Source: an uncultured Gammaproteobacteria bacterium
GTDB lineage: Bacteria > Pseudomonadota > Gammaproteobacteria > Tethybacterales > Tethybacteraceae
Length of the DNA stretch: 64,000 nt
Reading direction: 5' to 3'
NCBI GenBank assembly: GCA_964509765.1
Contig: CAZDYI010000011.1
Coordinates: 12,824-76,823, forward strand
Shown here in pieces: positions 578 to 63,806 of the stretch. Position numbers and translations under genes: made by a program. A model generated the notes under the pieces. The model searched no databases, was not told where the DNA came from, and was given only the letters and a program-made list of their open reading frames with translations. The number at the start of each line of letters is the position of its first letter. Within the stretch, counting starts at the first letter, position 1.

Positions 578-595
578 TATTATTAAACTCTGACC

Positions 596-6909: not shown

Positions 6910-6915
6910 TTAGTT

Positions 6916-45531: not shown

Positions 45532-45538
45532 GCCCGCG

Positions 45539-46024: not shown

Positions 46025-46497
46025 GGTCTTTCTGCCCTAGCGCAAGCGGACTTGCGGTCCAGGATGCGCAGGGATGCCGCATGTTATCACCAATCGAGCC
46101 GGAACCGTCGATCGGCCTCCGGAGCGAAAGGCAACCAGGCAGCCTGCGCAGTCCGGCGCACTGGGTTCAGGCTGCGCTGATTCAGGGAGCGCCGGCATCG
46201 GCACGGCCGACGTGCTAGTCCTTGGAGCCGGTCCGCCGGGTCGGATTACTCGGGAAGAAACCCCTTGGAGTTCCCGGCCGGAGCAGGGGTGTCCTGCTCC
46301 TCTGGGCACCTGAGGAGGTATTCCTCAAGCTGAGGTTACCAGCCATCCGCGATGTCGAAACAACAGCCCTTGCAGACCATCAAGCCACAGCCCCCGTCAT
46401 ACCGATCCCATGCGAAAGAGCAGGAGCAGATAAAATGCGCAGTCAAGCAATGGCAGAAAATTCACTCAATGCGAATGAACCTATGTGCCATGGCAAA

Positions 46498-48353: not shown

Positions 48354-48449
48354 GAGACCATTATACTACGAAATTGCCCAACGGGCTCTCTCGTGCTTGT
48401 CCATGCAGGAAACCTGAAGTCCGACTTTGCTAGGGGACATTGCTCGGGA

Positions 48450-49764: not shown

Positions 49765-51225
49765 TCAGAACTCGGGCCGCGGGAAGAGCGCCAGGCCCGA
49801 GTACAGGCCGTCGAAGGTCTCCGGAAGCGGGAACACGCCCGCGTCCCGCATCCTCTGGCCGAGCTCGCGGCGCGTGAGCCAGCCGACCAGGTCGTCGAAG
49901 TCGAACACCCTGCGGTTGATCGTTACGTTCTTGAGCGGGGCGGGCTTGGGCTCCCACTCGTGGATGGGCACCCGGGTCGTCGCGAAGACGTAGTTGTACG
50001 GGCGGTCCAGGCCGCGTATGATGTCGAAGGCCCTGGTCGAGTGGTTGCTTATCCTGGTCGGGTCCTCGTTCTGGACGATCTCGTCGTACGGGTAGCACGA
50101 GCCGAACAGGGCGTTGACCTCCTCGATGTCGATCGTGCTGTAAGTGAACGGCGGCATGGTCGGGGACGGGTAGCCCACGCACGTCCTGTTGGTTCCCTCG
50201 TAGGTCGCGGCGCCGAAGCGGTTGGGACCGTGCGAGATGATCACGAACGGGATCCCGTCGGTGACGTCGCGGACGTTGGGGTTGAGCAGGAAGTCCGCCA
50301 CGTACCTCGAGTAGTCGTCCGAATACTGGTCGAATGGGTTCTCGTTCGAGTGCAGGGTGGAGTTGTCGATGTTGTCCGTCGGCCGGCAGACGGTCGGGTC
50401 GGTGCCAGGGCCGGGGACGAGGTCCTCGGGCCTGCACACGACCATCGGCGCGGCCCCGAGCCTGCGGTCGCCGCGCTGGGCGAACGACCTGAGCTCGGAC
50501 AGGTGGGCCACAGCAGCGGTCTCGTAGAACGGGATGAAGGCCCCGGCCCTCGTGGCCTGGTCGAAGCCGTAGGCCGCGGTGGAGAACACCGGGTGCACGA
50601 CGTAGGTGAGCGCGGCGCCCCAGCTGTCGGTCGGCGGGAGCCCGAGCGTCGCCCACGGCAGGTCGCCGCGGACCTGCTCGCACACGCCGAAGGCGTGCTT
50701 GCCGGCGTTGTTCGCGGCCGAGCCATCGTCGAAGTCCTCGGCGAGGGGCGCGCGATCGCGGCCGATGCCGCCGTCTCCCCGCAGGGCAAACCTGTTGTCG
50801 GACCCTCCGCGCAGGCCGTCGGGCGCCGGGACCATCGGCACGTAGACCGCCGAGCGGTCCTCGATGCCGTCTCCGTTGACGTCCGGGCAGGGCAGGTACG
50901 GCCGGCCCTCGGGGACCCGGGCGATCCGGTGGCCATAATGTTCATACAGGTCTCGTGTCCCGGTGTTGCCGTTAAGGTTCAAGTAAAGGACGTTCATCCC
51001 GGGGCTGCGCCGCGAGGCGGCGTAGCCGACGACGGCGTCGATCGCGTCGGTTATGCGCTGTGACGTCCTGTCGTAGGCCTTGTCCTCGAGCTGCCTTCCG
51101 ATCGGGAGCACCGCGCCGCTCAGCAAAAGGCCGAGCACGGCGAGGACGATAGCAAGCTCGACGAGCGAGTACCCCTGCCTGCGCCCGCGCCGCGCCGCGG
51201 CCTGCGTCCCGGCCCTAGCAGGCAT
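49765..51225 (-). CDS. Large prepilin-type (class III signal) pseudopilin-like protein P3, 486 aa
   Basis: 17-aa basic leader then 'G|YSLVELAIVLAVLGLLL' (Glu at +5); shared motifs 'YLPCPDVNGDGIEDR', 'GVCEQVRGDLPW', 'SWGAALTYVVHPVF', 'ISHGPNRFG'. Confidence 0.7.
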   Translation of the reverse strand: MPARAGTQAAARRGRRQGYSLVELAIVLAVLGLLLSGAVLPIGRQLEDKAYDRTSQRITDAIDAVVGYAASRRSPGMNVLYLNLNGNTGTRDLYEHYGHRIARVPEGRPYLPCPDVNGDGIEDRSAVYVPMVPAPDGLRGGSDNRFALRGDGGIGRDRAPLAEDFDDGSAANNAGKHAFGVCEQVRGDLPWATLGLPPTDSWGAALTYVVHPVFSTAAYGFDQATRAGAFIPFYETAAVAHLSELRSFAQRGDRRLGAAPMVVCRPEDLVPGPGTDPTVCRPTDNIDNSTLHSNENPFDQYSDDYSRYVADFLLNPNVRDVTDGIPFVIISHGPNRFGAATYEGTNRTCVGYPSPTMPPFTYSTIDIEEVNALFGSCYPYDEIVQNEDPTRISNHSTRAFDIIRGLDRPYNYVFATTRVPIHEWEPKPAPLKNVTINRRVFDFDDLVGWLTRRELGQRMRDAGVFPLPETFDGLYSGLALFPRPEF

Positions 51226-52834
51226 CGCAGGTTCCGGGCGGGACCCATGCCTGGCCGGGCACGACCCCGAGCGCGCGCAGCTCGTTCATGAGCTGCTCGC
51301 CGCTCATGTGGACGAGCTCGTCGTCGAAGACGGAGGAGTCGGTGTCGTGGGCGGGCATGGATATGAAGGAGTGGCTGTGGGGAAAGCTCCTCCTGATGTT
51401 CATGCGGGGGTGCAGGTCGGTGCTCGAGCTCCCGCCGCAGAAGCTGTTCGGCGGGTAGTCGTTGTTCTCGTTCTCGGGATGAGTGCTAGGCCAGTCGATT
51501 ATCCCCGGCGGGAGGTTCGCGCTGCAGTTGACCCCTCCCCCGAGCGGGGAGGCGTAGTTGCCGCCGCCCTGGTGGGGGACGGCGCCGACGCCGTTGGGAC
51601 CGTGGGAGACCACGACGAAGGCCATGCCGTTGACCACCTCGTGCTGCTCGTAGACGCGGGCGACGGTGAGCCCCTCGAGGACGTCGAACAGCGTGAGGTC
51701 GGTCTCGGCGACGTCGTTGATCGTCCTGCCGACGAGCGTGATCACCGCGGGGTTCGCGGTCATCGAGCAGCCGATGTTCTGCGACTCGTACGCGGAGGTG
51801 CACACGAGGCCGGGATAGTCGTCCACGATCGGCCGGACGACCTCGCCGTTGATCGTGATTTCGACGCCGGCTTGCCATGCGTAGGTTATGTTCGATCCCG
51901 AGGCGGTGTCGTGGAGCCGCCTCTGGTAGGAGGCGAACTCCCGGGTCTCGACGGTCCGGCCCCCTGCGACCAGGTCGAGGTCCTCTCCGACGAGCGGGAA
52001 CCTGGGGTCGAACATGTCCGAGCGCGTCTCGGGCCCGATCCCGAGCACCTGGCTCGCGAAGACGGGGTCGACCCGGTAGGTGAAGCGGTTCCCCCACGGG
52101 TCGTGCGCGTGGGTGCCGAGCGTGCTCCACGGGAGCATGCCCTTGTCGGTCGCGCAGCCGCCCCGGGTGATCAGCTCGTTGTCGGACCTGTCGTCGGATA
52201 TCGCGACCGACATCGGGATGAACTCGGCGACCGAGTAGAGCAGCTGCAGGTTCGTCAGGTGGGAGAGCGGGTTGGGCGTCATGCCCGCGCCCGGCCGGAC
52301 CCCGTGCGTGTAGTAGAAGTGCGGGGTGACGTCGCCGGGCATCTCGAGCTCGTAGGTCCTCTGGGTGCTGTCGAGCGACCCGCCGACGTACGACCGGACC
52401 AGCAGGTTCATCCCGTCGATCACGCCGACGTTCCTCGTTGCGGGCCCGGTGAAGCCGCCGTCGGGGCCGACGTCGGCCGACGGGAGCGCGTGGCGGTCCT
52501 CGAGTCCGTCGCCGTTTATGTCCGGGCAGGGCAGGTACGGCCTGTTCGCAGGTATGGGAGCCCGGACGCCGGGGTTGGAGTCGAGGTAGGCCACCGCGCC
52601 GGGGCTGCGGTGGGTCGTGGCGTATCCGACGATCGCCCTGGATATGTCCGCGAGCTGGCCGCGCACCTCGTCGGCGCGCTCGGCGCGTATGCGCGCCCCG
52701 AGGGGGACGAGCGACATCCCGAGCAGCAGGCCGATCACGGCAAGCGCTATGCCGGCCTCGACCACGGTGTAGCCCCCCGCGCGGGCGCCGTTGCGCCCGC
52801 GCGCGGCGGCCTGCACCGTCGGTCTTCCCGCCAC
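51215..52834 (-). CDS. Large prepilin-type pseudopilin-like protein P2, ~540 aa
   Basis: GTG start set just after the upstream stop; leader then 'G|YTVVEAGIALAVIGLLL'; 'YLPCPDINGDGLEDR', 'GGCATDKGMLPW', 'DPWGNRFTYRVDPVF', 'VSHGPNGVG'. The longer ORF (to 53866) overlaps P1 and was trimmed. Confidence 0.7.
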   Translation of the reverse strand: MAGRPTVQAAARGRNGARAGGYTVVEAGIALAVIGLLLGMSLVPLGARIRAERADEVRGQLADISRAIVGYATTHRSPGAVAYLDSNPGVRAPIPANRPYLPCPDINGDGLEDRHALPSADVGPDGGFTGPATRNVGVIDGMNLLVRSYVGGSLDSTQRTYELEMPGDVTPHFYYTHGVRPGAGMTPNPLSHLTNLQLLYSVAEFIPMSVAISDDRSDNELITRGGCATDKGMLPWSTLGTHAHDPWGNRFTYRVDPVFASQVLGIGPETRSDMFDPRFPLVGEDLDLVAGGRTVETREFASYQRRLHDTASGSNITYAWQAGVEITINGEVVRPIVDDYPGLVCTSAYESQNIGCSMTANPAVITLVGRTINDVAETDLTLFDVLEGLTVARVYEQHEVVNGMAFVVVSHGPNGVGAVPHQGGGNYASPLGGGVNCSANLPPGIIDWPSTHPENENNDYPPNSFCGGSSSTDLHPRMNIRRSFPHSHSFISMPAHDTDSSVFDDELVHMSGEQLMNELRALGVVPGQAWVPPGTCDAC

Positions 52835-52836
52835 AG

Positions 52837-54177
52837 TCAGAACTCCGTCGCGTAGTAGCCGACCGCGGGCTTGGGCAGCGGGAAGATCCCGTCCGTCGTG
52901 AGCCTGCCTATGAGCGTGCCGGTCTTCATCCACACCAGGACGTCGTCGTAGCCCTCGTCCTCCGGCAGGACCGGAAGCGCGGTGGGCTGCGCGCGCACGA
53001 ACACGCCGGTCCAGGAGTCGTCGCGCCCGCATGCGGCCTGCAGGTCCGCGCCCGAGCAGCCGCCGGGGGCGATCTCGGCAACCTCGCAGGGGAAGGTCAG
53101 GCGGGCGTTGATCTTCTCGTGCACCCTCTCCCGGCTCGCGTAGCTCGCGAACGGCCTGCACAGGAACGGGTCGGACGGGCTGCGGCCGTGCTGGTACACC
53201 CGCCCGCCGAGGCCGTTGGGACCGTGGGAGAGGATCGCATACGCGATCCCGTTCGACACGAACGGGTAGGTCACGCCGGCCGCGGCGAAGTCGAGCTCGA
53301 CGCCCTGTCCGGCGCCGCCGCCGACGAAGCCGTACTCGAGGACGCTGAAGCGCGGGCCGTCTGCGGTGTTCGCGCTGCGGCGCTCGAAGCTCTGCCTGCT
53401 GATGTCCGTCCCGGAAACCTCGCCGGCGTGCACGATGTAGCCGTCGGGCGTGCCCGGCGCGCGCTCGAGCACGAGGCCGGGCCTGTAGAAGTACCGCAGG
53501 CTGCCGACGGACGGCGCGGCGTTGGCGTTGTGCCGGAAGGGGTACGACAGGACGTTGGCGGACTGCTCGAGCCGGACCGCGTAGTTCCTGTACACGGGGG
53601 TGGCCTTGGTGTCCTGGTCGAAGCCGAAGGACCCGTGGCTGAAGTTGCCGTCGACCCAGTATGTGTAGTGCTGCCCCCAGGGGTCGGCGGGCTGGGTCCC
53701 GAGGGTGCGCCAGGGAAGCAGGCCCTTGCTGTCTATGCAGCGCAAGGGGGTGTTGCCGAGGTCGGCGACGTACTCCGGCCGGGCGGTGATCGTGACGGTG
53801 AACAGCGTGGCCGGGTCGTCGGCCATGAACCGGTCCTCGAAGCCGTCGCCGTCGACGTCGGGACACGGCAGGACAGGCCTGCCCGACGGCGCGTGCACGG
53901 TTATCCGCACCTGGCCGCCGACGGCCCGGTCGCGGTAGGCGACGTCCGCGCCGCGGCTGCGGTTCTCGTTCGCGTAGGCGATCACGGCCTCGTGCACCGA
54001 GCCCATGTACTCCTGGACCCCTTCGCGCTGGTCGTTGCGGATCCAGTCCGAGAGGTTCCAGGCCGCGGTCGACGAGATCATCAGCAGGACGACGAGCACG
54101 AGCGCGATCTCGACGAGGGAGTAGCCGGAGGGGGCGGGCCTGCGCGCCCCCGTCCGGCCTCCGCTTCGTTTCGTCAC
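52837..54177 (-). CDS. Large prepilin-type pseudopilin-like protein P1, ~446 aa
   Basis: GTGA overlap with the giant gene's stop; leader then 'G|YSLVEIALVLVVLLMI'; 'VLPCPDVDGDGFEDR', 'LRCIDSKGLLPW', 'DPWGQHYTYWVD', 'LSHGPNGLG'. Confidence 0.7.
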   Translation of the reverse strand: MTKRSGGRTGARRPAPSGYSLVEIALVLVVLLMISSTAAWNLSDWIRNDQREGVQEYMGSVHEAVIAYANENRSRGADVAYRDRAVGGQVRITVHAPSGRPVLPCPDVDGDGFEDRFMADDPATLFTVTITARPEYVADLGNTPLRCIDSKGLLPWRTLGTQPADPWGQHYTYWVDGNFSHGSFGFDQDTKATPVYRNYAVRLEQSANVLSYPFRHNANAAPSVGSLRYFYRPGLVLERAPGTPDGYIVHAGEVSGTDISRQSFERRSANTADGPRFSVLEYGFVGGGAGQGVELDFAAAGVTYPFVSNGIAYAILSHGPNGLGGRVYQHGRSPSDPFLCRPFASYASRERVHEKINARLTFPCEVAEIAPGGCSGADLQAACGRDDSWTGVFVRAQPTALPVLPEDEGYDDVLVWMKTGTLIGRLTTDGIFPLPKPAVGYYATEF

Positions 54178-57100
54178 TGCTGCGACATCCTGCCGCCGAC
54201 CATGCGGAAGACGTCGTTCCCGGGGACCCCGGCGCGCGGCGAGCCGGAGCCGTCGGACCTGTGTATGTTGCCGAACAGGAAGTAGTCGTCCAGGTCGGTG
54301 TTCTCGGGGTCGTCGAGCAGCATGCACTTGTGCGCGTCGCCGACCTGGGTGGATTGCGGGTCGACCGGCCCGTCGGATCCCCACGGGGTGGAGTCGAGCG
54401 CGTTCTCGAGGCGCAGGAGGTCCGCTGCCCCGGGGCCGTCGAACTCGTAGGTGACGTCGAGCAGGTTCCTCCTGGTGATCAGCTCCCGCTGCTGGGAGAA
54501 CTCGATCACCTCGTCTGCCGACGCGCAGACCGCGTACTCGATCAGCGGCTCGGGGCTGTGCCCGATCAGGGCCTTGATGTTGGTGAACCGCACGGGACGC
54601 CCGCCGATGTGTATGGTGATCCCCTGCGGCAGCCGCGCCGCCGGCGGGGCGAACTCCATCTCGGTGCCGGTGTAGAGCGCGACCGAGCTGCGGGCGTTGA
54701 GCCTGATGTTGTCGCTGAAGTGCTGGATGTCGACCTCGGACGACGGCAGGTAGGTCCCGAGCAGCGGGTTGATCACCGAGTTGGCGGGTATGGTGAGGGT
54801 CACAGCATCGAGAACCAGCTCGACGTCGTCGAGCACCCGGACCCACATGTTCTGGTAGATGGGGTTCTCCATGGCGGTGAGGTCGTCGTTGAAGCCCAGT
54901 ATCTGCGTCCTCGACGTGTCGGTGAGGTCGGCGAACGGCGTTGTCACCGCGGGCTCGATCCTGCGGTCGATCACCATGCCGCCCACGTCGTACGCCATGG
55001 CGGGTCGGAAGCCGGCATCGGCGGACGTCGGCTCGTGCGGGTCGAGCGTGGTTCCCGCAAAGAGGGTGACCGAGCGCTGCGCATCGACCTCGGTCGGGTC
55101 GGTCAGGTCGGTGAAGTACCTGTGCAGGGTGATCTCGGCGTTCGCCGGGAATACGATCCTGTGCAGGTGGGGCGCAAACTCGTACTGGGGGTCCATCGCG
55201 AAGTTGGACGGGTCGAACGCGCTCGGGTCCGCGGCCTCGACATCCTCGTTCCTGAACACCGAGTCCATGGCCCTGGTGTCTAGCACGGCGGAGGTGAAGT
55301 TGGCGCCGCTCGGGAGGAGCTCGTCGGGAATCGCAAACCTGACGGTAAGCAGGCGGTAGTCTCCGAGCGCGGGAGTGGCGGTGTCGGTCACTATCCTGCC
55401 TCCCCTGAATCCAATGCCGTCCACCTCGTACTGAACTCTCCCGGAATTGATGCTTTCGTAAGGAGTGGTGGAACTCCCCAGTGATATCGCCACCGAAGTG
55501 GTGATCGCCGACGGGCGGGTGTATATCCCCGGCGAGCCGCCGCCGCCGCCTGCGACAACGTTGCCAACCGCCCCGTTCGCGCCGAGGGTAAGGACTATCT
55601 CAGGTCCGGAGGTTTGCTCAAGCCTCCTTGACGGCAGGGCCAGGCCGAGCTCCGGATAGACGATGCTGCCGCCGGGCAGGATCTCGGCGCCTATGGTGAC
55701 AGCGGGCGTGGGAACCTGGAGCCACAGGTTCCTTCCGGAGATGACAGGGTCCGACTCCGAGAACTCGACCTCGATCTCGTTGAAGATGGGATTCCTCTCA
55801 AGGTCCGCATGGGTGAGGATGCCTTCGGTGAGCTCCGGGTAGAAGCTGCGGAAGTCGACGATGTCCTGCTGCTCCGACAGGGGAAGCTGCCGGCGCTCGA
55901 TGTACAGCTGGCTCGCGTCCGTGGCCAGGAGCGGTATCCTGAGGTTTTCGTCAGGCGGTGCGCGCCTCGAGGGTGTCCAGTGGTTGTCAAAGCTTGCCGG
56001 GACGTCAACCGATATCCTCGTTGTCGCCGGCCACATCCCGACGCCCGGCTGCTTGTAGAAGGCTACAGGCGCGAAGAGGTCCATGTGCTGGCCGACCGTG
56101 AGCGTAGTGACTTGGTCTCCGAACCTTTGGAGGGTGAACCCTGTGAGCTGCGGCAGGGTGAACCTCGCTTCGCTGTTCAAGGCACCGCCGGAATAGTCGA
56201 TCACACGGAGGAAGGCCGTGTGGCTCGGCTCCGTGTCGGAGGGGGTGTGGTCGCCAGGGTCAAAGCCAAAGTCAACAGGGTTTCCGCCGTCGTCGAAGGC
56301 CCTGTTTTGGTGTCCGGAAAAGCCGTCCGTGGAGGCGGTGGACGGAAGCATGGCGGCGGTGGACCAAGCCCGCTGGTAACCGCTGTCCGTGGCCTGAACC
56401 CTGAATTCATTGAAAGTTCCCGAGCCCGAGGTGTTGACCAAGTCCTCAATGTCGTCACCATCAATCTGTACGGTGATGTTGACGTCGAAAAAGCCTTCGA
56501 TGTTGTTCCATGTGTTGCCGCCTTCGCGGATCTGGAACTGCGAGGCAACGTTCGTCAGCAGGATTTCAACGTCCACGTCGCCAATCTGGGAATTGGCGCC
56601 GCCGAGCTGCTGCAAGGTAAGGGTGAAGGGCACGCCGCAGAAAGGGCAGTAAACCGGAGGTCCCACAGGGAGGGCAATGGTGACGTCGGTGTTGTTCAGC
56701 GGATACTGGGTGCCCGTGTAGTCGGCGAGCCAGGCGTCGTCGTGGGTCTTGTTGTGCGGGATCGCCATGTTGAGCGGCAGCGCACGGGAGTGGGCCGGGT
56801 TTGGCACTGGCGAGAGGCCTGCAATTGTGACGGCGTCCAGCGCGAGGGCCGCAGTCTCGAAGTTGTGGTCGCGCAGTGCCATCCACCACTCCTCGCCCTC
56901 GCCGGTCGTCGTCTCGAATATCTGGCTCTGCGCCCGGACCCCGATGTCGGTCCGCGCCTCGATCGCTCCCTGCCAGGCGTAGCCCGGCGTGTCGAACTTG
57001 GCGACCTCGCCCGGGGCCAGGGTAACAACCTCGAACCGCGTGTCGGGGTCCTGCGCGCCCGCGGCGCCGTAGGTGGTGTCGACGGTGATTGTGGATGGTA

Positions 57101-60100
57101 TCGTGAGCGTCATGGTTGACAGGGGGTAGTTGGTGACGGCGTTCGGATGGGGGGCCGGGGGGACGAAGTCGGTGCCCGTGAGTGAGCACGGGAAGTTGAA
57201 CGGTGTCCAGATTCCCGTCAAGCCGGGGTACCCGCCCGTTGGATTGTAGGGGGGGCCAGCGGGGTCGAATGTCAAGGGATTGTTGGTGATTGCGGGATTG
57301 AGGGGGGAGGGATAGGCAGAGACTCCCTGTCTGTTCGCGCAGATGTTCAGCGGCACCTCGCCGAGGTCGACGACCCTCTGGAACGTCGATCCCGGCAGGA
57401 CCTCGGGCAGGGACAGCCCCGGGCCGGTCCGCACCGCGTCGCCCCTAACCGCCACCTCGAAGCCCGTCACCTCGTCGACGAGCCTCATGTCGCTGAGGTC
57501 GTATGTGTCGCTGCCCTCGACGTAGCTGCTGCCGGGGCCGAGGTCGATCGACACCGCCAGCCCCGCGGCCTCTACGTCGTCGTGCTCGGACACCGCAAGC
57601 TCGGTCCCGCCCCCGAGGTGCAGCGTTCCCGCCATCCGCGCCGTCACCCGGTAGGAGGACAGCGCCTCGTTGCCGAGCGTGTACCCGCCTAGGACCACTG
57701 TGACCGGCTCCTGGTGGCCGCGCGCGGTCGGGTCGTCCGGCTTCACCTCCGGCAGGTGGTAGGGCTGCGTCAGCCCCGGCTCCTCCTGCAAAAACTGCAT
57801 CCCTCGCGGGCCGGGGCGGATCACCACAGTCTGGCCCGGCGTCCCGAAGCTCGCGAACCCCGGGAAGGGCTCGATCGCGTTGACGTCGCTCGAGCGACGC
57901 ATCGCGCGGAGCCCGCCGCCTTCCGTGAACTGCACCCCGGCGACCGTCTGCGTCAGGCCCGAGCCGTCGACAACCTCGATGTCCGGAGGGACGATCCAGG
58001 ATCCCCGGTAGCCGTGCACGATCAGCCCCGCGAGCGGCGGCGAGGATTCCGGCAGCTGCACCGCCGCGCCCGGCAGCGCAAGGGCGTTCAGGCCCTCGCC
58101 TGCGCCTGAGGCGCAGTCCTCGTCCTCGACTCCGGCCCGGTCCTCGCGGCACTCGTCCGCAACCGCGTAGAACAGCGGGTTGTTCTGTGCGAAGACCAGG
58201 TCGTCGGGACGGAAGTCCGTGTGCTGCCAGTCGTTGTCCCTCTTGCTCCAGGATAGCTCGATCAGCGACTGCGCCCTGAGCCGGCCCAGCGGGTCGTAGG
58301 CCGAAGCCGAGCGCAGCCGGAAGATCTGGCCCTTGGTGACGGTCCCGCCGGCCCGCCTCGCCACGGCGCTGCCGCCCCTGACCGTGCTGACCACCTGGTA
58401 GCCTTCCGAATTGGCGACGAAGCTGAACGACAGGTCGGGGTCGTCTCCCGGAACCTCGTTCCCGCGGATCAGCAGGCTGTTGGATGGGTCTACCCAGCCG
58501 AAGTCCGAGCTGATGAACGCGACCGGCCCGTCGATGAAGGTGCCGTCGTGCAGCCATTCCACAGAGTCGCCGACCAGCACGATGTCGGAGTCGAGTATCA
58601 TCCCGGAGACCACCAGGTCCGTGTCGTTTGCCCCCATGCTGGCCGTCAGGGAAGTCACGTGCCTGCCGGCGTCTATGTCCCTTCCCGCCGGGATCAGCAG
58701 GCGCGGGTTGTTGACCGCAAAGCCCTCGGGGACTTCCCTGACGAAGTTCCGCTCGACTACCTGCGACATGTCGTTTCCGCGCCTGTACCGAAACCCCCTG
58801 CCCCAGGGGATTAGGGAGCGTCCGGAGTCGACGTTTGCGGAGTCGACCCACACGACGGAGACCCGGGCGGGCCCCGTGAACGAGTGCTGGTCCCTCGAGA
58901 AACGCAGGCCCTCCCTGCGGTCCCGGTCGGACGGCGCCCCGGACGGAATCGGCGAGAAGCCCACCCCGCGGAACACCCGCCCGCCGGGCGCGAAGTCGTC
59001 GCTGTAGACGCCCAGCGTTGCGAAGAACGGCGAGCTGGAGGTGAACGTGGTGATGTCCGCGACCAGCGCCGGGTTCGGGAGCATCCCGAACTCCGCCTTG
59101 CTGCCCTTCGGGACCAGCAGGCGGCGGAAGGGCTGGTCGTTGCTCTCGTACATCATCGCGTCGGTGTGGAAGTCGAACACCGCGCGCAGGCTGTCCGGCA
59201 GGCTCGAGCCGAGCGGCATCGTGTCGCTCGGGGCGAGCGAGGCGTCCTGGTAGCTGTCCCCGTAGGGGGCGATGTCCGTGGTCGGGTTGAGCCGGATCGC
59301 GAGCTCGGCCAAGTTCGGGTCGATGTAGGTGTCGGGGTTTCCGGATGTGCGGATCACGCTCACCAGCACGTTGGTCAGCTCGGAGCCGGCGAACAGCCCC
59401 CCGGGGTTGGCTAGGGCGGCGCCAGGCCGGAAGGGGGCGACCAGCGGCGTGGAGCTCTCCCAGTTGCCGAACTGGTTCAGCGCGACGTGCGAGTTCGCGA
59501 TGGTCACGGTTACCGACAGCGGGTCCGGCGTTGACGTGGTGAGCAGGCCCGGTATGCCCAGCGTGAGCTCGAGGGGCTCGGCTCCGAGGTTGATCCGCCC
59601 CGGGTTGGCCTGCATCAGGAAGCCGCCCTCGGCCAAGTCAATGTCTATCGTCTGGGCGACGATTCTGACCGTGAAGTCCGTGCCTAGGGCGGAGGCGCCA
59701 GGGTAAACCCTGCCCACAGTGAGGGTTGCTGCCGCGGTGTCCACCGGGACGATCGCTGCCGCTGACGTGTCGAGCTCCACCCCGACGCCCATCTCGTCCG
59801 TCAGGGCGTACGCCGAGAAGCCCACCGACGCAAGCGCCGCACGGTTGGGGGCGGGCTGCAGGGCTATGTTGTTGACCGCAAGCCGGTCCGGGTCGCCCAC
59901 GGCCTGGTAGCGCACGTCCAGCCTGCTGATCGGGTTGTCGATGAATGACACCGTCACGGTGTCGGCCGGGTTGAGCGGTTCGAACGACGGGGTCCTGATG
60001 GTCAGCGAAAGCAGGGTCATCTCGACGGGCGTGGTGCCCGCTATGTCTGCCTGTATGGTCACCGAGGCGGTGTCGTACCTCGCGAACGGACCCATCCTCC

Positions 60101-63100
60101 GCGACATCGGCACCACCATGTTGTGGTACGGGTATACGTGGAAGCCGTTGTGGTGCGGGTCATTCGTCAGGTTGGTCCGCACCCGGCTGCCGTAGACGAC
60201 TTGTGACGGGTTAGTCGGGGCGCCTGAGATTGTCTCTCTGAACGGGCTGGTGCAACTGGCGATCGTGCTCAATGGAAGGCCCGTGGAATCGTCTCCGACA
60301 TCGAAACCGCCCCAAACTATGAAGCCCGAGGGCAACGGAGTGACCGGATAGGAGGCGGGCAGGGGCACTGATATGCCGCGTCCGACATCGCACACCACGT
60401 AGTCCGTTCCCAGGAAGTTTACGATCCTGTCCCGCTCAACAACCGGCTGGTCCGTCATGTACGAAAGCAACAGGTCGTAAAGCGTGTCGCCCACCGGCTC
60501 CGGGAAGTCGTTCGGGCTAACCAGCCCCATCCCCATCGACTCGATCCTAAAGCCCGCCTGCCCCCAGGTCTGCGGGACCATCGAGAAATCGCCGTCGTCG
60601 TGGTGCAGCAGCTGCGAGTATCTCAGCTGCCCGCCGTTGACGAGCGTCAGGCGCGCGCGGACCTCTGTGCCCGACTGCTCGCTCCCGTCCGGAAGGATGA
60701 TGCCGTTGGCAACGTCGACGTTCTCGATCACCGCTCCCGGCGGCAGGTGCGCAACAGCGCTCCTGCCCGGCAGCGGGCCCGTGTTCGTCCCGTACAGCTG
60801 CGACGGCGGGCGCAGGCTCCTGGGCGCGTTGCGGTTGTAGAAGCCGAACAGCCTGCCGGTCGCCCCGTGGCTGAAGCGCTGCTCCCCGAGCGGGACCATC
60901 GCCCCCGCAGGGTAGTAAAACGTCGTGTCGTGCGGCATCGTGACCTTGCCCTCGAGCGTCAGCCTCGTCGGCGCGATCACCGATTCTCCGTCGCTGATCG
61001 GGTACGGGTGCACCGTCGCCAGGTACTCGCCGTCCGTGCCCTCTGACCCGATTATCCGCAGTCTCGCAGGGGATGTGATCTCCCTCGGGGCGTTCTCGTC
61101 CGGGTCCAGGTTGCGCGGCTGGTTGATGTTCCGGTCGAAGATCGGGTGCATGGTCACCTCTGCCGGGAAGTAGCCGTACGCCCCGTTCGGGTCGGTGATC
61201 ATCAGCACCTCGTGCTGCGTCCTGTCGATGTACTGCGGCGAGCCGATCGCCCGCCCGAACGGCCTCGGCAGGGTCCCGCCCCTGGCCGCGGAGTACTCGC
61301 CGAAGATCGGCAGCACCTCGTCGAACGGGTAGGGGTCGCTCTCGTAGTGGTTGAAGGCCACGGCAGAGTTCAGGAAGGGTATCTGGTTCGGCAGCGGCGG
61401 CGTCGGCAGCAGGCCCTGCGAGCCCGAGGCGATCGGCGTCATCGCCGGGACCGCAAGGTCGGGAATCACGGCCCCCGGAACGGTGATGTCCCCGAGGTCC
61501 CTTGTCACGCCGTAGCTGAAGAACGCGTCGTCGGACGGGATTATCGGGAATGCGTGCCTCGTGTCGATCGCTCGGGTGAAGACCGCCGGCATCCGTGGGT
61601 CGGGAGTGAAGATGCTGATCTGCCTGTCCGACCCGAAGATCGTGACCGCGACCGTCGTCTTGATGAACGTCCCCGCCGGCAGCCTGATGTCGTAACCCAG
61701 CTCCGCGAGGTTGCCGGCGTGTCCCGGGCGCAGGTCCGCGAACAGTGCGTTGAAGTCGCCGGAAAAGCTCCTGTAGTTGCTGTCGCCTCGCCCGGCGCTT
61801 GTCGCAAGCGTAAGCTCGTTGCTTATGAACGGAACCCGAAACGGTATGGTCCTCCTGCCGGTCTGGATCGGGTAGGTGGCTCCGGGAGCGCAGGCGGGCG
61901 GGGAACCTGTCGGGGCTACGGGGGTGCCCGCAGGGATGGGTATGCAATACTGAAACTCCTGGTCGACGGACTGGTCCGGGGGCGTGTTCCTGCCGATGTT
62001 AACCATGACCAATGTAGAGGTTGCGGGCACCTGTATTTCGAATGGAGGGCCGATCCGTGTGGTCATGATGACTGTCGCCGGGGCCGTGACAAGGGTGCTT
62101 ATGGTCCTCGTTCCCGTTGAGGAGAGGTTCGTCGGACGCTCGGGCGAGGTGTGCACCGGCGCCGCGAGCTGCAGCGGCGTGTTGGCCTCGATTACCGCTA
62201 TCCACTCCACCGGCCCTGATGACGTGGGCAGGGACATCTCTCCGTTCTCGTGGAACAACTCGCTGACCGGCGGTAGCTGGAAGTTGCCGATCGCTGACCC
62301 CATCCCGTCTTGGACTGAGACCCGGCCGGCAACCCAGTTAGGGACGTACACAGCCGGAACCTCGCCGGCAGGCAGCAGCCCGACCGCGCGCACGGAGGAG
62401 CCGATCTCTGCGTCGTAGTTGACTCCGTCCATGAAGGCCGGCGAGAACTCATACTGCACCCGCCCTCCCTGCAGGCGCTCGAAGTCCTCCATGTCGAACG
62501 GCGGGAAGAAGTTCGCTCCGAGGGGCACCATAATGTCGGGAGCGCCGGGGGGTGAGCCAGGAGGGGGTGGGAACGTTGCGTAATCCACCGGCCTACTGTC
62601 GTAAAGATGCCTGTTCACCCCCTTCGAAGGCCGACCGAAGCGCCTGATGATGTACTCCGAGTTCGACGACTCGAACGTCGCCGGGTCCGGCAGGTGCCGG
62701 TTGCGCTCGTAGAAGTCGCTCAGCGCCTGGCTTATCCCGTCCAGGTGCGGGTCCGCGTCCTGCCTCGAGAACGCATCCAGGATCTCCTCCCTGTGCACGT
62801 AAGCCACTTGGTCCATCGTCGCGTCCGCGTTGCCCGCGTTGTGCACGAAACGCCTGTCGCCGTCCTGGTTGTCCGGGTCCAGCGCGAACGCCGGGTTGGA
62901 TGCGTCCGGGCTGCCCAGGCTCGGCCTCTCGGTAAGGGATGGCCTGTACTCGTCCCAGTACCCCTCCTGCTGCCCCTCGTGCACCCCCGGCGAGATCACC
63001 ACCGCCGCCAGGCCGTCTATCGTCGTCGTGACCGTGTCGCCCGAGGGGTCGTGGGGATGGTCCACGATGTCCACCGAGAGCCAGTCGTCCAGCACCCGCG

Positions 63101-63806
63101 TCAGCTTGTAGTTGTTCAGCGGCCGCACCGTGTCCAGCAGGTTGTAGGACGCGGCGTACCAAAGCCTGTCGCCGTTGGCGTTGCGTATGTCGCCGGATCC
63201 GGCCCCCCTGATGAAGCTCGCGTAGTCGTTGTACTCGCGCCACGGAAGCCGGCCGAACGAGCTGTCGGTGACCAGCGGATCTGTCCTCGACCTGGAGGAG
63301 CACAGGACGAATGACGGGTCCGACACCCCGTCAAGGGACAGGTCGTTGAACGAGTCAAGGCCGTCGGGCACGTCCAGGGAACCCGCGCCGGTCTCGCTCA
63401 CGGCGAACGGGGAGACCAACTGGAAGTCCCCCACGTTGTCCGGGCACGGCAACTGCCCTGGCCGGAACGGAACCATCATGTCGTCGTTGAAGGTGCCGAC
63501 GACGTGCGCGTTGAACACGTTGTAAAGCGGCCTGATCGAGACGTTCCCGCTGAACTTGAACGGCGGGCTCGGCGGGTTGACCGCGTAGTCGATTATGGCC
63601 TTGCGGGCCTGGGAGAGGGCGGCGGGCGTCACCTTGGCCGCCTTGGCCTCCCGCTCGAGAATCTCGGACTGGAAGCTCACCACCCCGAAGGTGGTGATCC
63701 CGAACATGACGAGCACGAGCAGCAGGACCTGGACGAAGCCGCCCTGGGCTCCGCGGCGCCATGCGCCGCGCCTGCCCGCGCTTCCCGTGGTGGTCCTGTC
63801 GGTCAC
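54174..63806 (-). CDS. Giant (3210 aa) prepilin-like protein without Glu5 (GspK/tip-pilin-like) and with a huge non-repetitive G/P/T/S/D-rich C-terminal extension; candidate modular pilin/adhesin
   Basis: N-terminus 'MTDRTTTGSAGRRGAWRRGAQGG|FVQVLLLVLVMFGITTFGVV'; shares the head motifs 'LPCPDNVGD', 'VLCSS...GRLPW' with P1-P3; single uninterrupted 9.6-kb ORF. Confidence 0.7.
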   Translation of the reverse strand: MTDRTTTGSAGRRGAWRRGAQGGFVQVLLLVLVMFGITTFGVVSFQSEILEREAKAAKVTPAALSQARKAIIDYAVNPPSPPFKFSGNVSIRPLYNVFNAHVVGTFNDDMMVPFRPGQLPCPDNVGDFQLVSPFAVSETGAGSLDVPDGLDSFNDLSLDGVSDPSFVLCSSRSRTDPLVTDSSFGRLPWREYNDYASFIRGAGSGDIRNANGDRLWYAASYNLLDTVRPLNNYKLTRVLDDWLSVDIVDHPHDPSGDTVTTTIDGLAAVVISPGVHEGQQEGYWDEYRPSLTERPSLGSPDASNPAFALDPDNQDGDRRFVHNAGNADATMDQVAYVHREEILDAFSRQDADPHLDGISQALSDFYERNRHLPDPATFESSNSEYIIRRFGRPSKGVNRHLYDSRPVDYATFPPPPGSPPGAPDIMVPLGANFFPPFDMEDFERLQGGRVQYEFSPAFMDGVNYDAEIGSSVRAVGLLPAGEVPAVYVPNWVAGRVSVQDGMGSAIGNFQLPPVSELFHENGEMSLPTSSGPVEWIAVIEANTPLQLAAPVHTSPERPTNLSSTGTRTISTLVTAPATVIMTTRIGPPFEIQVPATSTLVMVNIGRNTPPDQSVDQEFQYCIPIPAGTPVAPTGSPPACAPGATYPIQTGRRTIPFRVPFISNELTLATSAGRGDSNYRSFSGDFNALFADLRPGHAGNLAELGYDIRLPAGTFIKTTVAVTIFGSDRQISIFTPDPRMPAVFTRAIDTRHAFPIIPSDDAFFSYGVTRDLGDITVPGAVIPDLAVPAMTPIASGSQGLLPTPPLPNQIPFLNSAVAFNHYESDPYPFDEVLPIFGEYSAARGGTLPRPFGRAIGSPQYIDRTQHEVLMITDPNGAYGYFPAEVTMHPIFDRNINQPRNLDPDENAPREITSPARLRIIGSEGTDGEYLATVHPYPISDGESVIAPTRLTLEGKVTMPHDTTFYYPAGAMVPLGEQRFSHGATGRLFGFYNRNAPRSLRPPSQLYGTNTGPLPGRSAVAHLPPGAVIENVDVANGIILPDGSEQSGTEVRARLTLVNGGQLRYSQLLHHDDGDFSMVPQTWGQAGFRIESMGMGLVSPNDFPEPVGDTLYDLLLSYMTDQPVVERDRIVNFLGTDYVVCDVGRGISVPLPASYPVTPLPSGFIVWGGFDVGDDSTGLPLSTIASCTSPFRETISGAPTNPSQVVYGSRVRTNLTNDPHHNGFHVYPYHNMVVPMSRRMGPFARYDTASVTIQADIAGTTPVEMTLLSLTIRTPSFEPLNPADTVTVSFIDNPISRLDVRYQAVGDPDRLAVNNIALQPAPNRAALASVGFSAYALTDEMGVGVELDTSAAAIVPVDTAAATLTVGRVYPGASALGTDFTVRIVAQTIDIDLAEGGFLMQANPGRINLGAEPLELTLGIPGLLTTSTPDPLSVTVTIANSHVALNQFGNWESSTPLVAPFRPGAALANPGGLFAGSELTNVLVSVIRTSGNPDTYIDPNLAELAIRLNPTTDIAPYGDSYQDASLAPSDTMPLGSSLPDSLRAVFDFHTDAMMYESNDQPFRRLLVPKGSKAEFGMLPNPALVADITTFTSSSPFFATLGVYSDDFAPGGRVFRGVGFSPIPSGAPSDRDRREGLRFSRDQHSFTGPARVSVVWVDSANVDSGRSLIPWGRGFRYRRGNDMSQVVERNFVREVPEGFAVNNPRLLIPAGRDIDAGRHVTSLTASMGANDTDLVVSGMILDSDIVLVGDSVEWLHDGTFIDGPVAFISSDFGWVDPSNSLLIRGNEVPGDDPDLSFSFVANSEGYQVVSTVRGGSAVARRAGGTVTKGQIFRLRSASAYDPLGRLRAQSLIELSWSKRDNDWQHTDFRPDDLVFAQNNPLFYAVADECREDRAGVEDEDCASGAGEGLNALALPGAAVQLPESSPPLAGLIVHGYRGSWIVPPDIEVVDGSGLTQTVAGVQFTEGGGLRAMRRSSDVNAIEPFPGFASFGTPGQTVVIRPGPRGMQFLQEEPGLTQPYHLPEVKPDDPTARGHQEPVTVVLGGYTLGNEALSSYRVTARMAGTLHLGGGTELAVSEHDDVEAAGLAVSIDLGPGSSYVEGSDTYDLSDMRLVDEVTGFEVAVRGDAVRTGPGLSLPEVLPGSTFQRVVDLGEVPLNICANRQGVSAYPSPLNPAITNNPLTFDPAGPPYNPTGGYPGLTGIWTPFNFPCSLTGTDFVPPAPHPNAVTNYPLSTMTLTIPSTITVDTTYGAAGAQDPDTRFEVVTLAPGEVAKFDTPGYAWQGAIEARTDIGVRAQSQIFETTTGEGEEWWMALRDHNFETAALALDAVTIAGLSPVPNPAHSRALPLNMAIPHNKTHDDAWLADYTGTQYPLNNTDVTIALPVGPPVYCPFCGVPFTLTLQQLGGANSQIGDVDVEILLTNVASQFQIREGGNTWNNIEGFFDVNITVQIDGDDIEDLVNTSGSGTFNEFRVQATDSGYQRAWSTAAMLPSTASTDGFSGHQNRAFDDGGNPVDFGFDPGDHTPSDTEPSHTAFLRVIDYSGGALNSEARFTLPQLTGFTLQRFGDQVTTLTVGQHMDLFAPVAFYKQPGVGMWPATTRISVDVPASFDNHWTPSRRAPPDENLRIPLLATDASQLYIERRQLPLSEQQDIVDFRSFYPELTEGILTHADLERNPIFNEIEVEFSESDPVISGRNLWLQVPTPAVTIGAEILPGGSIVYPELGLALPSRRLEQTSGPEIVLTLGANGAVGNVVAGGGGGSPGIYTRPSAITTSVAISLGSSTTPYESINSGRVQYEVDGIGFRGGRIVTDTATPALGDYRLLTVRFAIPDELLPSGANFTSAVLDTRAMDSVFRNEDVEAADPSAFDPSNFAMDPQYEFAPHLHRIVFPANAEITLHRYFTDLTDPTEVDAQRSVTLFAGTTLDPHEPTSADAGFRPAMAYDVGGMVIDRRIEPAVTTPFADLTDTSRTQILGFNDDLTAMENPIYQNMWVRVLDDVELVLDAVTLTIPANSVINPLLGTYLPSSEVDIQHFSDNIRLNARSSVALYTGTEMEFAPPAARLPQGITIHIGGRPVRFTNIKALIGHSPEPLIEYAVCASADEVIEFSQQRELITRRNLLDVTYEFDGPGAADLLRLENALDSTPWGSDGPVDPQSTQVGDAHKCMLLDDPENTDLDDYFLFGNIHRSDGSGSPRAGVPGNDVFRMVGGRMSQQ

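What the first reader, a model, noticed from the sequence alone, without database searches (positions are those of the whole stretch)
49765..63806. Conserved LPCPD-(V/I)(N/D)GDG-x-EDR loop and paired cysteines define the shared head domain of the four pilin-like proteins
Directly after the N-terminal helix, all four proteins carry LPCPD. In P1-P3 this is followed by (V/I)(N/D)GDG(I/L/F)EDR, an acidic D-x-N/D-x-D-G-x-E-D loop resembling EF-hand/dockerin/thrombospondin-type Ca2+ sites. A second invariant Cys lies ~40-60 residues later ('GVCEQVRGDLPW', 'GGCATDKGMLPW', 'LRCIDSKGLLPW', 'VLCSS..GRLPW'). These are followed by 'G.LPW.TLG...DPWG..YTY.VD'. P1-P3 also share '(V/I)SHGPN.(F/V/L)G' near the C-terminus. 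Two conserved Cys bracketing a loop recall the disulfide-bonded D-region of type IV pilins. A calcium site in a pilus tip module would parallel PilY1-type Ca-dependent regulation.
Basis: seen in the sequence. Interest (0 to 1): 0.6.

Follow-up and report, generated by a model that had tools for sequence, protein, structure and literature searches.

The report
New pilin family with giant member
Four adjacent genes encode subunits of a hair-like bacterial surface fibre (type IV pilus) from an undescribed family that shares a cysteine-clamped, probably calcium-binding loop. One subunit is a 3,210-residue giant that probably caps the fibre as an adhesin in relatives of sponge symbionts.

Summary
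All four minus-strand genes (P4 54174-63806, P3 52837-54177, P2 51215-52834, P1 49765-51225) encode prepilin-type proteins with LPCPD, a second Cys, G.LPW and a (D)xWG..Y.Y-like block (degenerate DRLWYA in P4).

The motifs are conserved far beyond chance. LPCPD occurs in 133 of 139 cluster representatives (clusters at 50% identity), and D-x-[DNTS]-x-D-G-x-E-[DN]-R in 125 of those 133. Both Cys are present in 261 of 261 members.

P4 also has the loop (DLSLDGVSD, aa 155-163), displaced by an insertion. Its first ~350 residues are a complete homologue of the pilin module (hhalign 98.5%, helix removed).

Short (~235 aa) relatives in free-living Betaproteobacteria sit at the end of MSHA-type pilus assembly clusters. 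In the sponge-symbiont order Tethybacterales and related uncultured genomes, the pilin is triplicated and enlarged. There it is paired with a 2,100-4,559 aa Glu5-less giant and sits away from the machine genes.

The Cys pair clamps the alpha-beta loop, so it is not the C-terminal D-region. The loop fits the Dx[DN]xDGxxD calcium motif, but calcium binding is untested. It resembles GspG's structural calcium more than PilY1's regulatory site.

The head has no Pfam or NCBIfam model and no significant PDB neighbour. It is a new variant of a known kind; moderately interesting.

The parts
54174..63806 (-). P4: 3,210-aa giant pilin-like protein. It has a class III-type leader ending in GG, then FVQVL with no Glu5, an N-terminal LPCPD pilin module and a ~2,850-aa non-repetitive extension.
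   Evidence: ORF and start. No Pfam or NCBIfam hit over the whole length. 14 Cys in seven local pairs and no internal repeats by self-BLAST. Only 9 homologues of 2,111-3,369 aa in the word-indexed search; a 4,559-aa syntenic giant is annotated at L003.
62757..63737 (-). P4 pilin module (about aa 24-350), homologous to the whole short LPCPD pilin.
   Evidence: hhalign with the helix removed: probability 98.5%, E 3.9e-15, 153 columns, covering positions 8-168 of the 174-column short-pilin profile. Alignment shown.
63438..63452 (-). P4 LPCPD (aa 119-123; first invariant Cys is C121).
   Evidence: RPGQLPCPD is present in all 9 giant homologues.
63318..63344 (-). P4 displaced calcium-type loop DLSLDGVSD (aa 155-163), lying between C121 and C169.
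   Evidence: It is the only D.[DNST].D[GN]..[DE] match in 3,210 aa. 6 of 8 giant homologues and 4 of 7 free-living P4-like proteins keep Dx[DNS]xDGxx[DE] at this place.
63240..63302 (-). P4 second invariant Cys (C169) through GRLPW (aa 185-189).
54186..54989 (-). P4 C-terminal ~270 aa (aa 2940-3207). Among the most distant giants this is the only part matched here (their N-terminal ends lie outside the loci fetched).
   Evidence: tblastn hits at 26-34% identity at the ends of the giant genes in L003, L007, L009, L010, L012, L014, L016, L017 and L041.
52837..54177 (-). P3: 446-aa Glu5 pilin-like protein (G|YSLVE), the first paralogue after the giant.
   Evidence: Weak T2SSG match at aa 161-188 (E 0.16).
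53833..53871 (-). P3 LPCPD plus loop DVDGDGFED (aa 103-115).
53710..53739 (-). P3 second Cys (C147) through GLLPW.
51215..52834 (-). P2: 539-aa Glu5 pilin-like protein (G|YTVVE), the second paralogue.
52496..52534 (-). P2 LPCPD plus loop DINGDGLED (aa 101-113).
52127..52156 (-). P2 second Cys (C227) through GMLPW.
49765..51225 (-). P1: 486-aa Glu5 pilin-like protein (G|YSLVE), the third paralogue.
   Evidence: Pfam N_methyl 24.4 bits against a cut-off of 21.2. AF2 model has pTM 0.75 and a confident core.
50857..50895 (-). P1 LPCPD plus loop DVNGDGIED (aa 111-123).
   Evidence: pLDDT is 95 for aa 111-120; D115 and R124 are beta-bridge residues.
50653..50682 (-). P1 second Cys (C182) through GDLPW.
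50212..50238 (-). P1 ISHGPNRFG block. The equivalents are P2 51584-51610, P3 53206-53232 and P4 VVISPG 62985-63002.
   Evidence: S331, H332 and G333 are invariant or near-invariant.

Best explanation
The four genes form one operon encoding subunits of a type IV filament. They belong to an undescribed pilin family, called here 'LPCPD pilins'.

Each protein has a short basic leader ending in Gly and a hydrophobic N-terminal helix that would pack into the fibre core. Each also has a globular head whose alpha-beta loop starts at LPCPD, contains a Dx[DNT]xDGxED-type loop, and is closed by a disulfide between the LPCPD Cys and a second invariant Cys just before G.LPW.

The loop most likely binds one Ca2+ and, together with the disulfide, rigidifies the exposed head. 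This would be a structural role like the calcium site of the type II secretion pseudopilin GspG.

P4 lacks Glu5 and carries about 2,850 extra residues. It is most likely the first subunit incorporated, so it would sit at the distal tip as a giant modular pilin or adhesin. P1-P3 keep Glu5 and form three conserved, position-specific paralogue lineages. They would sit beneath P4 as a priming or tip complex.

The ancestral form is a pair (a P4-like protein of about 300-900 aa plus one pilin of about 235 aa) at the end of MSHA-type pilus clusters in free-living Betaproteobacteria. In Tethybacterales sponge symbionts and related uncultured genomes the pair was expanded and moved away from the machine genes.

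Shown here: homology, motif conservation, Cys co-occurrence, gene context and taxonomic distribution. Inferred: the disulfide, calcium binding, tip location and an adhesive role.
For: Pilin nature:
- Leader-Gly-[FY]xxxE followed by a hydrophobic helix in P1-P3.
- N_methyl matches 88/90 family members at E<=1 and exceeds its cut-off in P1.
- PDB profile hits are all type IV pilins or GspG, through alpha1 only.
- AF2 models show a 50-residue helix plus a beta-rich head.
- The best, though non-significant, Foldseek hits of the compact model are type IV pilins.

Shared head:
- (see the observation check).

Disulfides:
- C113/C182 are present in 261/261 members.
- C264/C280 are both present in 222 and both absent in 23.
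- C349/C377 are both present in 185 and both absent in 57.
- The Cys count is even in 233/261.
- P4 has 14 Cys in seven local pairs.

Calcium-type loop:
- The motif fits Dx[DN]xDG plus an acidic residue two positions after the Gly (PMC3123361).
- In both models it is a high-confidence hairpin loop.

Machine link:
- In about 35 loci the short pilin follows homologues of the Thiobacillus MshL-type secretin, TPR protein, MshE-type ATPase and GspF-type platform protein (tblastn).
- In Thiobacillus denitrificans itself the secretin scores 251.9 bits against the 250.2 cut-off, and the ATPase carries the MshEN domain.
- In Azospira a Glu5-less P4-like protein directly precedes the pilin.

Expansion in symbionts:
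- Synteny of a giant plus three pilins is seen in L002-L004, L010-L013 and L016 (three paralogues each); L006 and L014 carry a shorter first copy, and L007 and L009 show two copies within the fetched stretch.
- Hosts are named.
- Three position-specific paralogue clades appear in the tree.

Other support:
- A type IVa pilus machine was reported in a Tethybacterales genome bin (PMC12625764).
- The modular-pilin concept and its inferred tip location come from PMC8179133.
Against: - No assembly ATPase, platform protein, secretin or prepilin peptidase lies in the 64-kb window or within 10 kb of any symbiont locus. Assembly in this organism is therefore unproven.
- Position 3 of the loop is Thr in 46/133 representatives and Ser in P4, both atypical for Dx[DN]xDG.
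- The most conserved residues after the Gly are E8 and R10, not the D9 ligand. An Arg next to a calcium site is unusual.
- Neither the Cys-Cys distance nor the Asp geometry could be measured, because model coordinates are not returned.
- Thiobacillus clusters have the short pilin but no P4-like gene, so the pilin does not need a giant partner.
- Tip placement rests only on the missing Glu5 and on size.
Confidence: 0.6

Rival explanations
1. The D-x-[DNT]-x-D-G-x-E-D-R loop is not a calcium site. It is instead a conserved structural turn held by an E8/R10 salt bridge, a subunit-subunit or ligand contact surface, or a site for another cation.
For: E8 (128/133) and R10 (128/133) are better conserved than the presumed ligands at position 3 (D 53, T 46, N 22, S 8) and position 9 (D 114, N 14). 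No EF-hand, dockerin, FG-GAP or TSP3 profile matches; TSP3_bac hits 1 of 90 members at E 0.59.
Against: D1, D5 and G6 are near-invariant, and the D9 spacing is exactly that of documented calcium blades. Giant and free-living P4-like proteins independently keep Dx[DN]xDGxx[DE] although the rest of the loop differs and E8/R10 are absent. That points to selection on the calcium-ligand pattern rather than on the E/R pair.
Confidence: 0.3
2. P1-P3 are not a tip or priming complex. They are major subunits that co-polymerise into the shaft of an unusually thick heteropolymeric filament, with P4 only occasionally incorporated.
For: The cassette contains no other pilin gene. All three keep Glu5 and the same head. 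Heteropolymeric pili with two major pilins are known (PMC8179133).
Against: In free-living relatives a separate, typical major-pilin-like gene is linked to the same cluster (223-268 aa, GFTLIE, C-terminal Cys pair). The LPCPD pilin is the one adjacent to the assembly genes. Heads of 350-590 aa with long disordered insertions would be unusual for shaft packing. Three ancient position-specific lineages resemble minor-pilin sets.
Confidence: 0.2
3. The proteins are GspG-like pseudopilins of a type II secretion-type machine. They would form a periplasmic endopilus that exports proteins, rather than a surface pilus.
For: Database names for some relatives are 'type II secretion system protein'. The DxWGN-Y-Y, SHGxNG and DD..W blocks are colinear with GspG's DPWGNDY, SAGPDG and DDITNW. 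Pfam T2SSG hits 5/90 members, best E 2e-4.
Against: T2SSG and TIGR01710 scores are far below their cut-offs. Helix-free hhalign against E. coli GspG gives only P 0.004 and probability 8%. GspG ranks 21st in Foldseek with E 8.9. The linked secretin in relatives is the MshL type and the ATPase carries the MshEN domain. A 3,210-aa subunit cannot fit in a periplasmic endopilus.
Confidence: 0.1
4. One reading: the two Cys form the equivalent of the type IV pilin D-region, and the calcium site regulates pilus dynamics as in PilY1.
For: There is a conserved Cys pair bracketing a loop, and a 9-residue DxNxDGxxD motif with the spacing given for PilY1 in PMC3123361.
Against: The pair lies in the alpha-beta loop, upstream of the first conserved beta block (G.LPW, xWG..Y.Y), not at the C-terminal end of the pilin domain. 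There is no PilY1/PilC domain. The loop is present in every subunit and in short pilins of systems without any giant. That fits a structural role better than a tip-specific switch.
Confidence: 0.1

Closest known systems
Minor-pilin / tip complexes of type IV filaments (GspH-I-J-K of type II secretion; FimU-PilV-W-X of type IVa pili)
   Same: Both are four pilin-like proteins encoded together. One member is larger and lacks Glu5, as GspK does (own knowledge: Korotkov and Hol 2008). The set is proposed to initiate the fibre and cap its distal end (PMC13081927).
   Different: Here all four share one homologous head rather than four different folds. There are no profile matches to GspH/I/J/K or PilV/W/X. 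The Glu5-less member is 10-fold larger than GspK. The cassette is unlinked to machine genes.
Modular pilins (Streptococcus sanguinis PilB/PilC; ETEC CofB)
   Same: P4 has an N-terminal pilin module followed by additional sequence. Its size is predicted to be compatible only with a tip location (PMC8179133).
   Different: The largest modular pilin in that survey had 860 residues; P4 has 3,210 and a relative 4,559. The extension has no recognisable domain and no repeats. P4 lacks Glu5.
GspG major pseudopilin (Pfam T2SSG PF08334) and its structural calcium site
   Same: Both have a class III signal peptide and colinear DPWGN-Y / S-GP[DN]G / DD..W blocks. A metal-stabilised pilin head is a plausible shared concept.
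   Different: GspG's calcium site is near the C-terminus and replaces a disulfide. Here the calcium-type loop is in the alpha-beta loop and coexists with disulfides. Scores are below all family thresholds, and the heads are 2-4 times larger.
PilY1 / integrin 'calcium blade' Dx[DN]xDGxxD loops
   Same: The linear motif and the spacing of the extra acidic ligand are identical, and the loop sits between two beta elements.
   Different: The loop is not in a beta-propeller and there is no FG-GAP or PilC/PilY1 domain. It is present in each pilin subunit. Position 3 is often Thr or Ser.
MSHA-type type IV pilus clusters (MshL secretin, MshE c-di-GMP-binding ATPase)
   Same: Short family members in Thiobacillus, Azospira, Methylophilaceae, Gallionella and others are encoded directly after homologues of MshM, MshL, a TPR protein, MshE and GspF.
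   Different: The window cassette has no such neighbours. Whether the symbionts use an MSH-type or a type IVa machine is unknown. No similarity to named Vibrio MshB/C/D/O/P/Q proteins was tested or found.

Membership tests
Type IV pilin / class III signal peptide proteins (PF07963 N_methyl, TIGR02532) | Short basic leader ending in Gly, followed by about 20 hydrophobic residues. | tested here: met
   P1 RRQG|YSLVELAIVLAVLGLLL, P2 RAGG|YTVVEAGIALAVIGLLL, P3 APSG|YSLVEIALVLVVLLMI, P4 AQGG|FVQVLLLVLVMFGITTF.
Type IV pilin / class III signal peptide proteins (PF07963 N_methyl, TIGR02532) | Glu at position 5 of the mature protein. | tested here: inconclusive
   Present in P1-P3 and absent in P4, where position 5 is Leu. 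It is absent in all 9 giant homologues and in free-living P4-like proteins. Absence is known for tip subunits such as GspK (own knowledge).
Type IV pilin / class III signal peptide proteins (PF07963 N_methyl, TIGR02532) | Profile score above the curated cut-off. | tested here: inconclusive
   P1 scores 24.4 bits against 21.2 (met). P2 and P4 have no hit, and P3 scores 12.4 against 16.3 for TIGR02532. 88/90 family members match N_methyl at E<=1.
Type IV pilin / class III signal peptide proteins (PF07963 N_methyl, TIGR02532) | Encoded with, or dependent on, a type IV filament machine (prepilin peptidase, PilB-type ATPase, PilC-type platform). | tested here: inconclusive
   Not in the window or within 10 kb in symbiont loci. 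Met for short relatives in about 35 loci. Cleavage and assembly are not testable with these tools.
GspG / T2SSG (PF08334, TIGR01710) | Profile score above the cut-off over the globular domain. | tested here: not met
   P3 scores 12.5 bits against 21, and TIGR01710 scores 12-13.6 against 88.85. 5/90 members hit at E<=1. 0/10 short members hit.
GspG / T2SSG (PF08334, TIGR01710) | Profile or fold similarity of the head once alpha1 is removed. | tested here: inconclusive
   hhalign helix-free P 0.0043, probability 8%; only DxWGN aligns confidently. Foldseek places GspG 3g20_A at rank 21 with E 8.9.
Dx[DN]xDG calcium-binding loop (calcium-blade spacing) | Linear motif D-x-[DN]-x-D-G. | tested here: met
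   P1 DVNGDG, P2 DINGDG, P3 DVDGDG. P4 has the variant DLSLDG with Ser at position 3. Across the family, position 3 is D 53, T 46, N 22 and S 8 of 133.
Dx[DN]xDG calcium-binding loop (calcium-blade spacing) | Additional acidic side chain two residues after the Gly. | tested here: met
   D at position 9 in all four proteins, and D 114 / N 14 of 133 in the family. The criterion comes from PMC3123361.
Dx[DN]xDG calcium-binding loop (calcium-blade spacing) | Ligand geometry and measured calcium binding. | not testable with these tools
   Only pLDDT and DSSP are returned. The loop is a confident 8-residue hairpin with D1 and R10 in beta-bridges. No coordinates and no ion modelling are available.
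Type IV pilin D-region | Disulfide linking the last beta-strand(s) to the C-terminal segment of the pilin domain. | tested here: not met
   The invariant pair (P1 C113/C182) lies between alpha1 and the first conserved beta block.
PilY1 / PilC tip adhesins (PF05567) | C-terminal PilC/PilY1 propeller domain. | tested here: not met
   No Pfam or NCBIfam hit anywhere in P4 or P1-P3 at E<=1.
Modular pilins (as defined in PMC8179133) | Complete N-terminal pilin module fused to extra module(s). | tested here: met
   P4 aa ~24-350 aligns with the entire short pilin, followed by ~2,850 residues.

The most novel reading that the evidence does not exclude
The cassette encodes a new type of pilus-tip machine specific to Tethybacterales sponge symbionts. 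A 2,100-4,559-residue Glu5-less pilin would be presented by three dedicated, anciently diverged partner pilins and would replace PilY1-type adhesins. Its non-repetitive, domain-less extension would mediate recognition of the animal host, and the calcium- and disulfide-clamped LPCPD head would be the signature of an unrecognised branch of type IV filament subunits.
Probability: 0.3. Interest if true: 0.75.

Novelty: new variant of a known kind. Interest (0 to 1): 0.55.

Why it matters
Type IV filaments gain their functions largely through minor and tip pilins, yet most such proteins are unannotated.

This family has 617 clusters (at 50% identity) at E<=1e-30. It has no Pfam or NCBIfam model for its head and no mention in the searched literature.

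It combines a disulfide and a calcium-type loop in the alpha-beta loop, a place where neither has been described to my knowledge.

Its giant member is about four to five times longer than the largest modular pilin in the published survey. The cassette takes about 14 kb of genomes that, among relatives, are only 1.6-2 Mb, which argues for a strongly selected role. Host attachment in a very old animal-bacterium symbiosis is the obvious candidate.

The short Thiobacillus and Azospira homologues occur in cultivated strains, so the calcium and disulfide predictions are directly testable.

Tried and rejected
Look-ups that failed:
- Exact look-up of P4 and P0089 to get upstream DNA: not on record.
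- The Logan contig carrying P1 stops inside P4.
- Scan of GTDB representative genomes with the P4 N-terminus: nothing.
- The first alignment was too diverse for that scan; a trimmed alignment worked.

Structure searches:
- Foldseek against PDB with the P1 model gave no meaningful hit.
- With a compact homologue model it gave only weak pilin hits.

GspG membership, considered and rejected:
- hhalign of the full family against E. coli GspG aligns only alpha1.
- The short family extends the alignment to DPWGN, but the score is carried by the helix.
- The helix-free comparison is insignificant.
- Pfam on ten short members gives no T2SSG hit.

Other family memberships rejected:
- EF-hand, dockerin and TSP3: no profile support.
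- PilY1: no domain.
- D-region analogy: rejected on position.

Other negatives:
- The literature search for 'LPCPD' found nothing relevant.
- There are no RNA genes in the window.
- There is no pilus machinery in window 1-18 kb and none by tblastn anywhere in the window.
- The third homologue search and the metagenome scan were not used, because they would not have answered the open questions (machine genes, metal binding).
Full report
**What is there**

The interval holds four co-directional minus-strand genes:
- P4, 54174-63806, 3,210 aa
- P3, 52837-54177, 446 aa
- P2, 51215-52834, 539 aa
- P1, 49765-51225, 486 aa

The P4 stop and P3 start overlap (GTGA). P3 and P2 are 2 nt apart, and P2 and P1 overlap by 11 nt, so this is one tightly coupled operon. 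hemL follows downstream at 48450-49739. The window ends 194 nt upstream of P4.

Each product starts with a short Arg-rich leader ending in Gly, then a hydrophobic stretch: G|YSLVE (P1, P3), G|YTVVE (P2), G|FVQVL (P4). P1-P3 therefore have the prepilin cleavage site with Glu5, and P4 has Leu at position 5.

Pfam and NCBIfam recognise only the N-terminal methylation motif, which is above its cut-off in P1. Nothing at all matches in the 3,210 residues of P4.

**Checking the observation**

They are conserved far beyond chance:
- The first homologue search returned 88 proteins, nearly all with GRPYLPCPD-x-x-GDG-x-E-[DN]-R.
- An exhaustive profile search of 1.84 billion cluster representatives found 617 clusters at E<=1e-30.
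- Of 139 new representatives, 133 have LPCPD. Of those, 125 have D-x-[DNTS]-x-D-G-x-E-[DN]-R.

- The Cys-Cys spacing is 69, 124, 42 and 48 residues.
- LPCPD follows the helix directly only in short homologues. In P1 a hairpin is inserted first.
- Two further Cys pairs are conserved and are lost together. C264/C280 are both present in 222 members and both absent in 23. C349/C377 are both present in 185 and both absent in 57.
- P4 does have a calcium-type loop, DLSLDGVSD at aa 155-163. It sits between its two Cys and is separated from LPCPD by an insertion. It is the only such motif in the whole protein.
- 6 of 8 giant homologues keep Dx[DNS]xDGxxD there. In four free-living P4-like proteins the loop follows LPCPD directly, for example PCPDLNDDGVAE.

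**One head shared by all four**

I aligned giant N-termini with free-living P4-like proteins, removed the helix, and compared the result with the short pilin family.
- hhalign gives 98.5% probability and E 3.9e-15 over 153 columns.
- The alignment spans the entire globular part of the short pilin, including the C-terminal DD..W / DR..I.R.E block.

P4 is thus a complete pilin module (about aa 24-350) followed by about 2,850 further residues.

That extension has no internal repeats by self-BLAST and no domain hits. It has 14 Cys in seven local pairs. In the most distant giants, only its last ~270 residues are matched within the loci fetched here.

**Fold**

AF2 models of P1 and of a compact 280-aa homologue both show a roughly 50-residue helix, then a beta-rich head.
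- P1 model: pTM 0.75, with 169 residues at pLDDT >=90.
- Homologue model: pLDDT 79, pTM 0.78.

In both, the loop after LPCPD is a confident 8-residue hairpin, and its first Asp and the Arg at position 10 are beta-bridge residues.

**Relation to GspG**

The blocks DxWGN-Y-Y, SHG[PK]NG and FDD-V-W are colinear with GspG's DPWGNDY, SAGPDG and DDITNW. hhalign places LPCPD in GspG's alpha-beta loop.

The evidence does not reach membership:
- T2SSG and TIGR01710 scores are far below their cut-offs.
- Only 5/90 members hit T2SSG at E<=1.
- None of ten short members does.
- The helix-free comparison gives P 0.004 and probability 8%.

I treat this as a distant resemblance, not membership.

**Genomic and taxonomic context**

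A scan of one genome per GTDB species found 63 loci.

Full-length, multi-copy forms occur in:
- Candidatus Tethybacter, Amphirhobacter, AqS2, Persebacter and Zeuxoniibacter
- several unnamed 1.6-2.0 Mb 'Gammaproteobacteria' chromosomes

The named genera include members of the sponge-symbiont order Tethybacterales (PMC8546597; PMC12625764).

In these genomes the arrangement is the giant followed by LPCPD pilin paralogues, three in most loci where the whole cassette is visible. It is flanked by housekeeping genes. No pilus ATPase, platform protein or secretin lies within 10 kb.

A neighbour-joining tree groups the paralogues by gene position within each symbiont clade. This indicates an old triplication with differentiated copies.

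Short forms (about 235 aa, with all blocks and 2-6 Cys) occur in Thiobacillus (including T. denitrificans DSM 12475), Azospira sp. I13, Methylophilaceae, Gallionella, Rhodocyclaceae and others.

In about 35 loci the short pilin closes a conserved cluster (tblastn). In Thiobacillus denitrificans the members were characterised directly:
- an MshM-like ATPase
- an MshL secretin (251.9 bits against a cut-off of 250.2)
- a TPR protein
- an ATPase carrying the MshEN c-di-GMP domain
- a GspF/PilC-type platform protein
- two or three unannotated proteins

In Azospira and some other lineages a Glu5-less P4-like protein of about 300-900 aa directly precedes the pilin. Thiobacillus lacks that gene. A separate, ordinary-looking pilin gene lies a few kb downstream in most of these loci.

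**Mechanism proposed**

1. The four proteins are processed by a prepilin peptidase and inserted into a type IV filament through alpha1. This is inferred from the signal-peptide anatomy and from the machine linkage of short relatives. A type IVa machine has been reported in one Tethybacterales genome bin.

2. The LPCPD Cys and the second invariant Cys form a disulfide closing the alpha-beta loop. This is inferred from invariance, from members that have only these two Cys, from the co-loss pattern of the other pairs and from even Cys counts.

3. The enclosed Dx[DNT]xDGxED loop binds Ca2+ and stiffens the exposed head. This is inferred from the exact match to the calcium-blade pattern and from the hairpin prediction. 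It is weakened by Thr or Ser at position 3 and by the unexplained invariant Glu8 and Arg10. The closer analogy is the structural calcium of GspG (PMC13081927), not PilY1's regulatory site.

4. P4, which lacks Glu5 and is far too bulky for the shaft, is incorporated first and ends up at the tip. P1-P3 lie beneath it. This is inferred by analogy with GspK and with modular pilins.

**Comparison and novelty**

The kind of thing, pilin-like subunits and a modular tip pilin, is known. The following appear undescribed:
- the head family itself
- the combination of a disulfide and a calcium-type loop in the alpha-beta loop
- the four-homologue cassette
- the size of P4, 3,210 aa here and 4,559 aa in a relative, against 860 aa for the largest modular pilin in the published survey

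A full-text search for the motif found nothing relevant.

**Limits**

- Machine genes were not located for it.
- Metal binding, the disulfides and filament location are predictions.

Noticed in passing
window 36000-48400: Low-GC (47-60% against about 69%) defence island between the cell-division gene side and hemL. It holds three ABC-type defence ATPases (NsnB/AriA-like at 46923-48353; PD-T4-4_A-like at 43981-45531 and 36029-37534) and a type II restriction-modification pair (C5 methylase 40744-41799, endonuclease 38651-40642). In relative L004, hemL is directly followed by lpxC-ftsZ, so this is an insertion.
   Followed up: partly
window 54174-62756 (P4 aa ~351-3210): About 2,850 residues with no Pfam or NCBIfam hit, no internal repeats by self-BLAST, 0.6% Lys and six local Cys pairs. 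This is unlike typical giant adhesins, which are built of repeats. In the most distant giants only the last ~270 aa are matched within the loci fetched.
   Followed up: partly
window 596-9279: A region of lower GC (58-65%) with mobile-element or defence-like genes: an HTH plus Peptidase_M78 (ImmA/IrrE-like) protein, a DUF1828/DUF1829 protein, an AAA_14/DUF4143 ATPase, and an 841-aa protein with only a weak HTH_23 hit.
   Followed up: no
L060:7481-10037, L040:4674-7351 (free-living relatives): Between the platform gene and the LPCPD pilin, the MSHA-type clusters carry conserved proteins of about 500, 199 and 180 aa with no Pfam or NCBIfam match. By position they are presumably the alignment-complex (PilM/N/O/P-like) components of this machine.
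   Followed up: no
L018:1770 onward (CBDBMS010000003.1); protein P0226: Some genomes carry a giant LPCPD pilin that keeps Glu5 (FTIVEMAIVL..., about 2,250 aa; P0226 has 2,276 aa with the full head at aa 25-481). Gigantism is therefore not restricted to the Glu5-less lineage.
   Followed up: no
window 51157-51174, 52757-52774, 54109-54126: P1-P3 have Tyr rather than the usual Phe or Met as the first mature residue. Tyr at this position is common in the symbiont paralogues and rare in the free-living short pilins, which have Phe.
   Followed up: no
L040:10823-13907; L060:10725-12461: In the free-living clusters, signalling genes lie between the LPCPD pilin and the downstream major-pilin-like gene. 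L060 has a histidine-kinase-like protein (HATPase_c). In L040 I read a cyclase-like and a kinase-like protein by eye from the translations, without a profile search. This hints at second-messenger control, in line with the MshEN-type ATPase.
   Followed up: no
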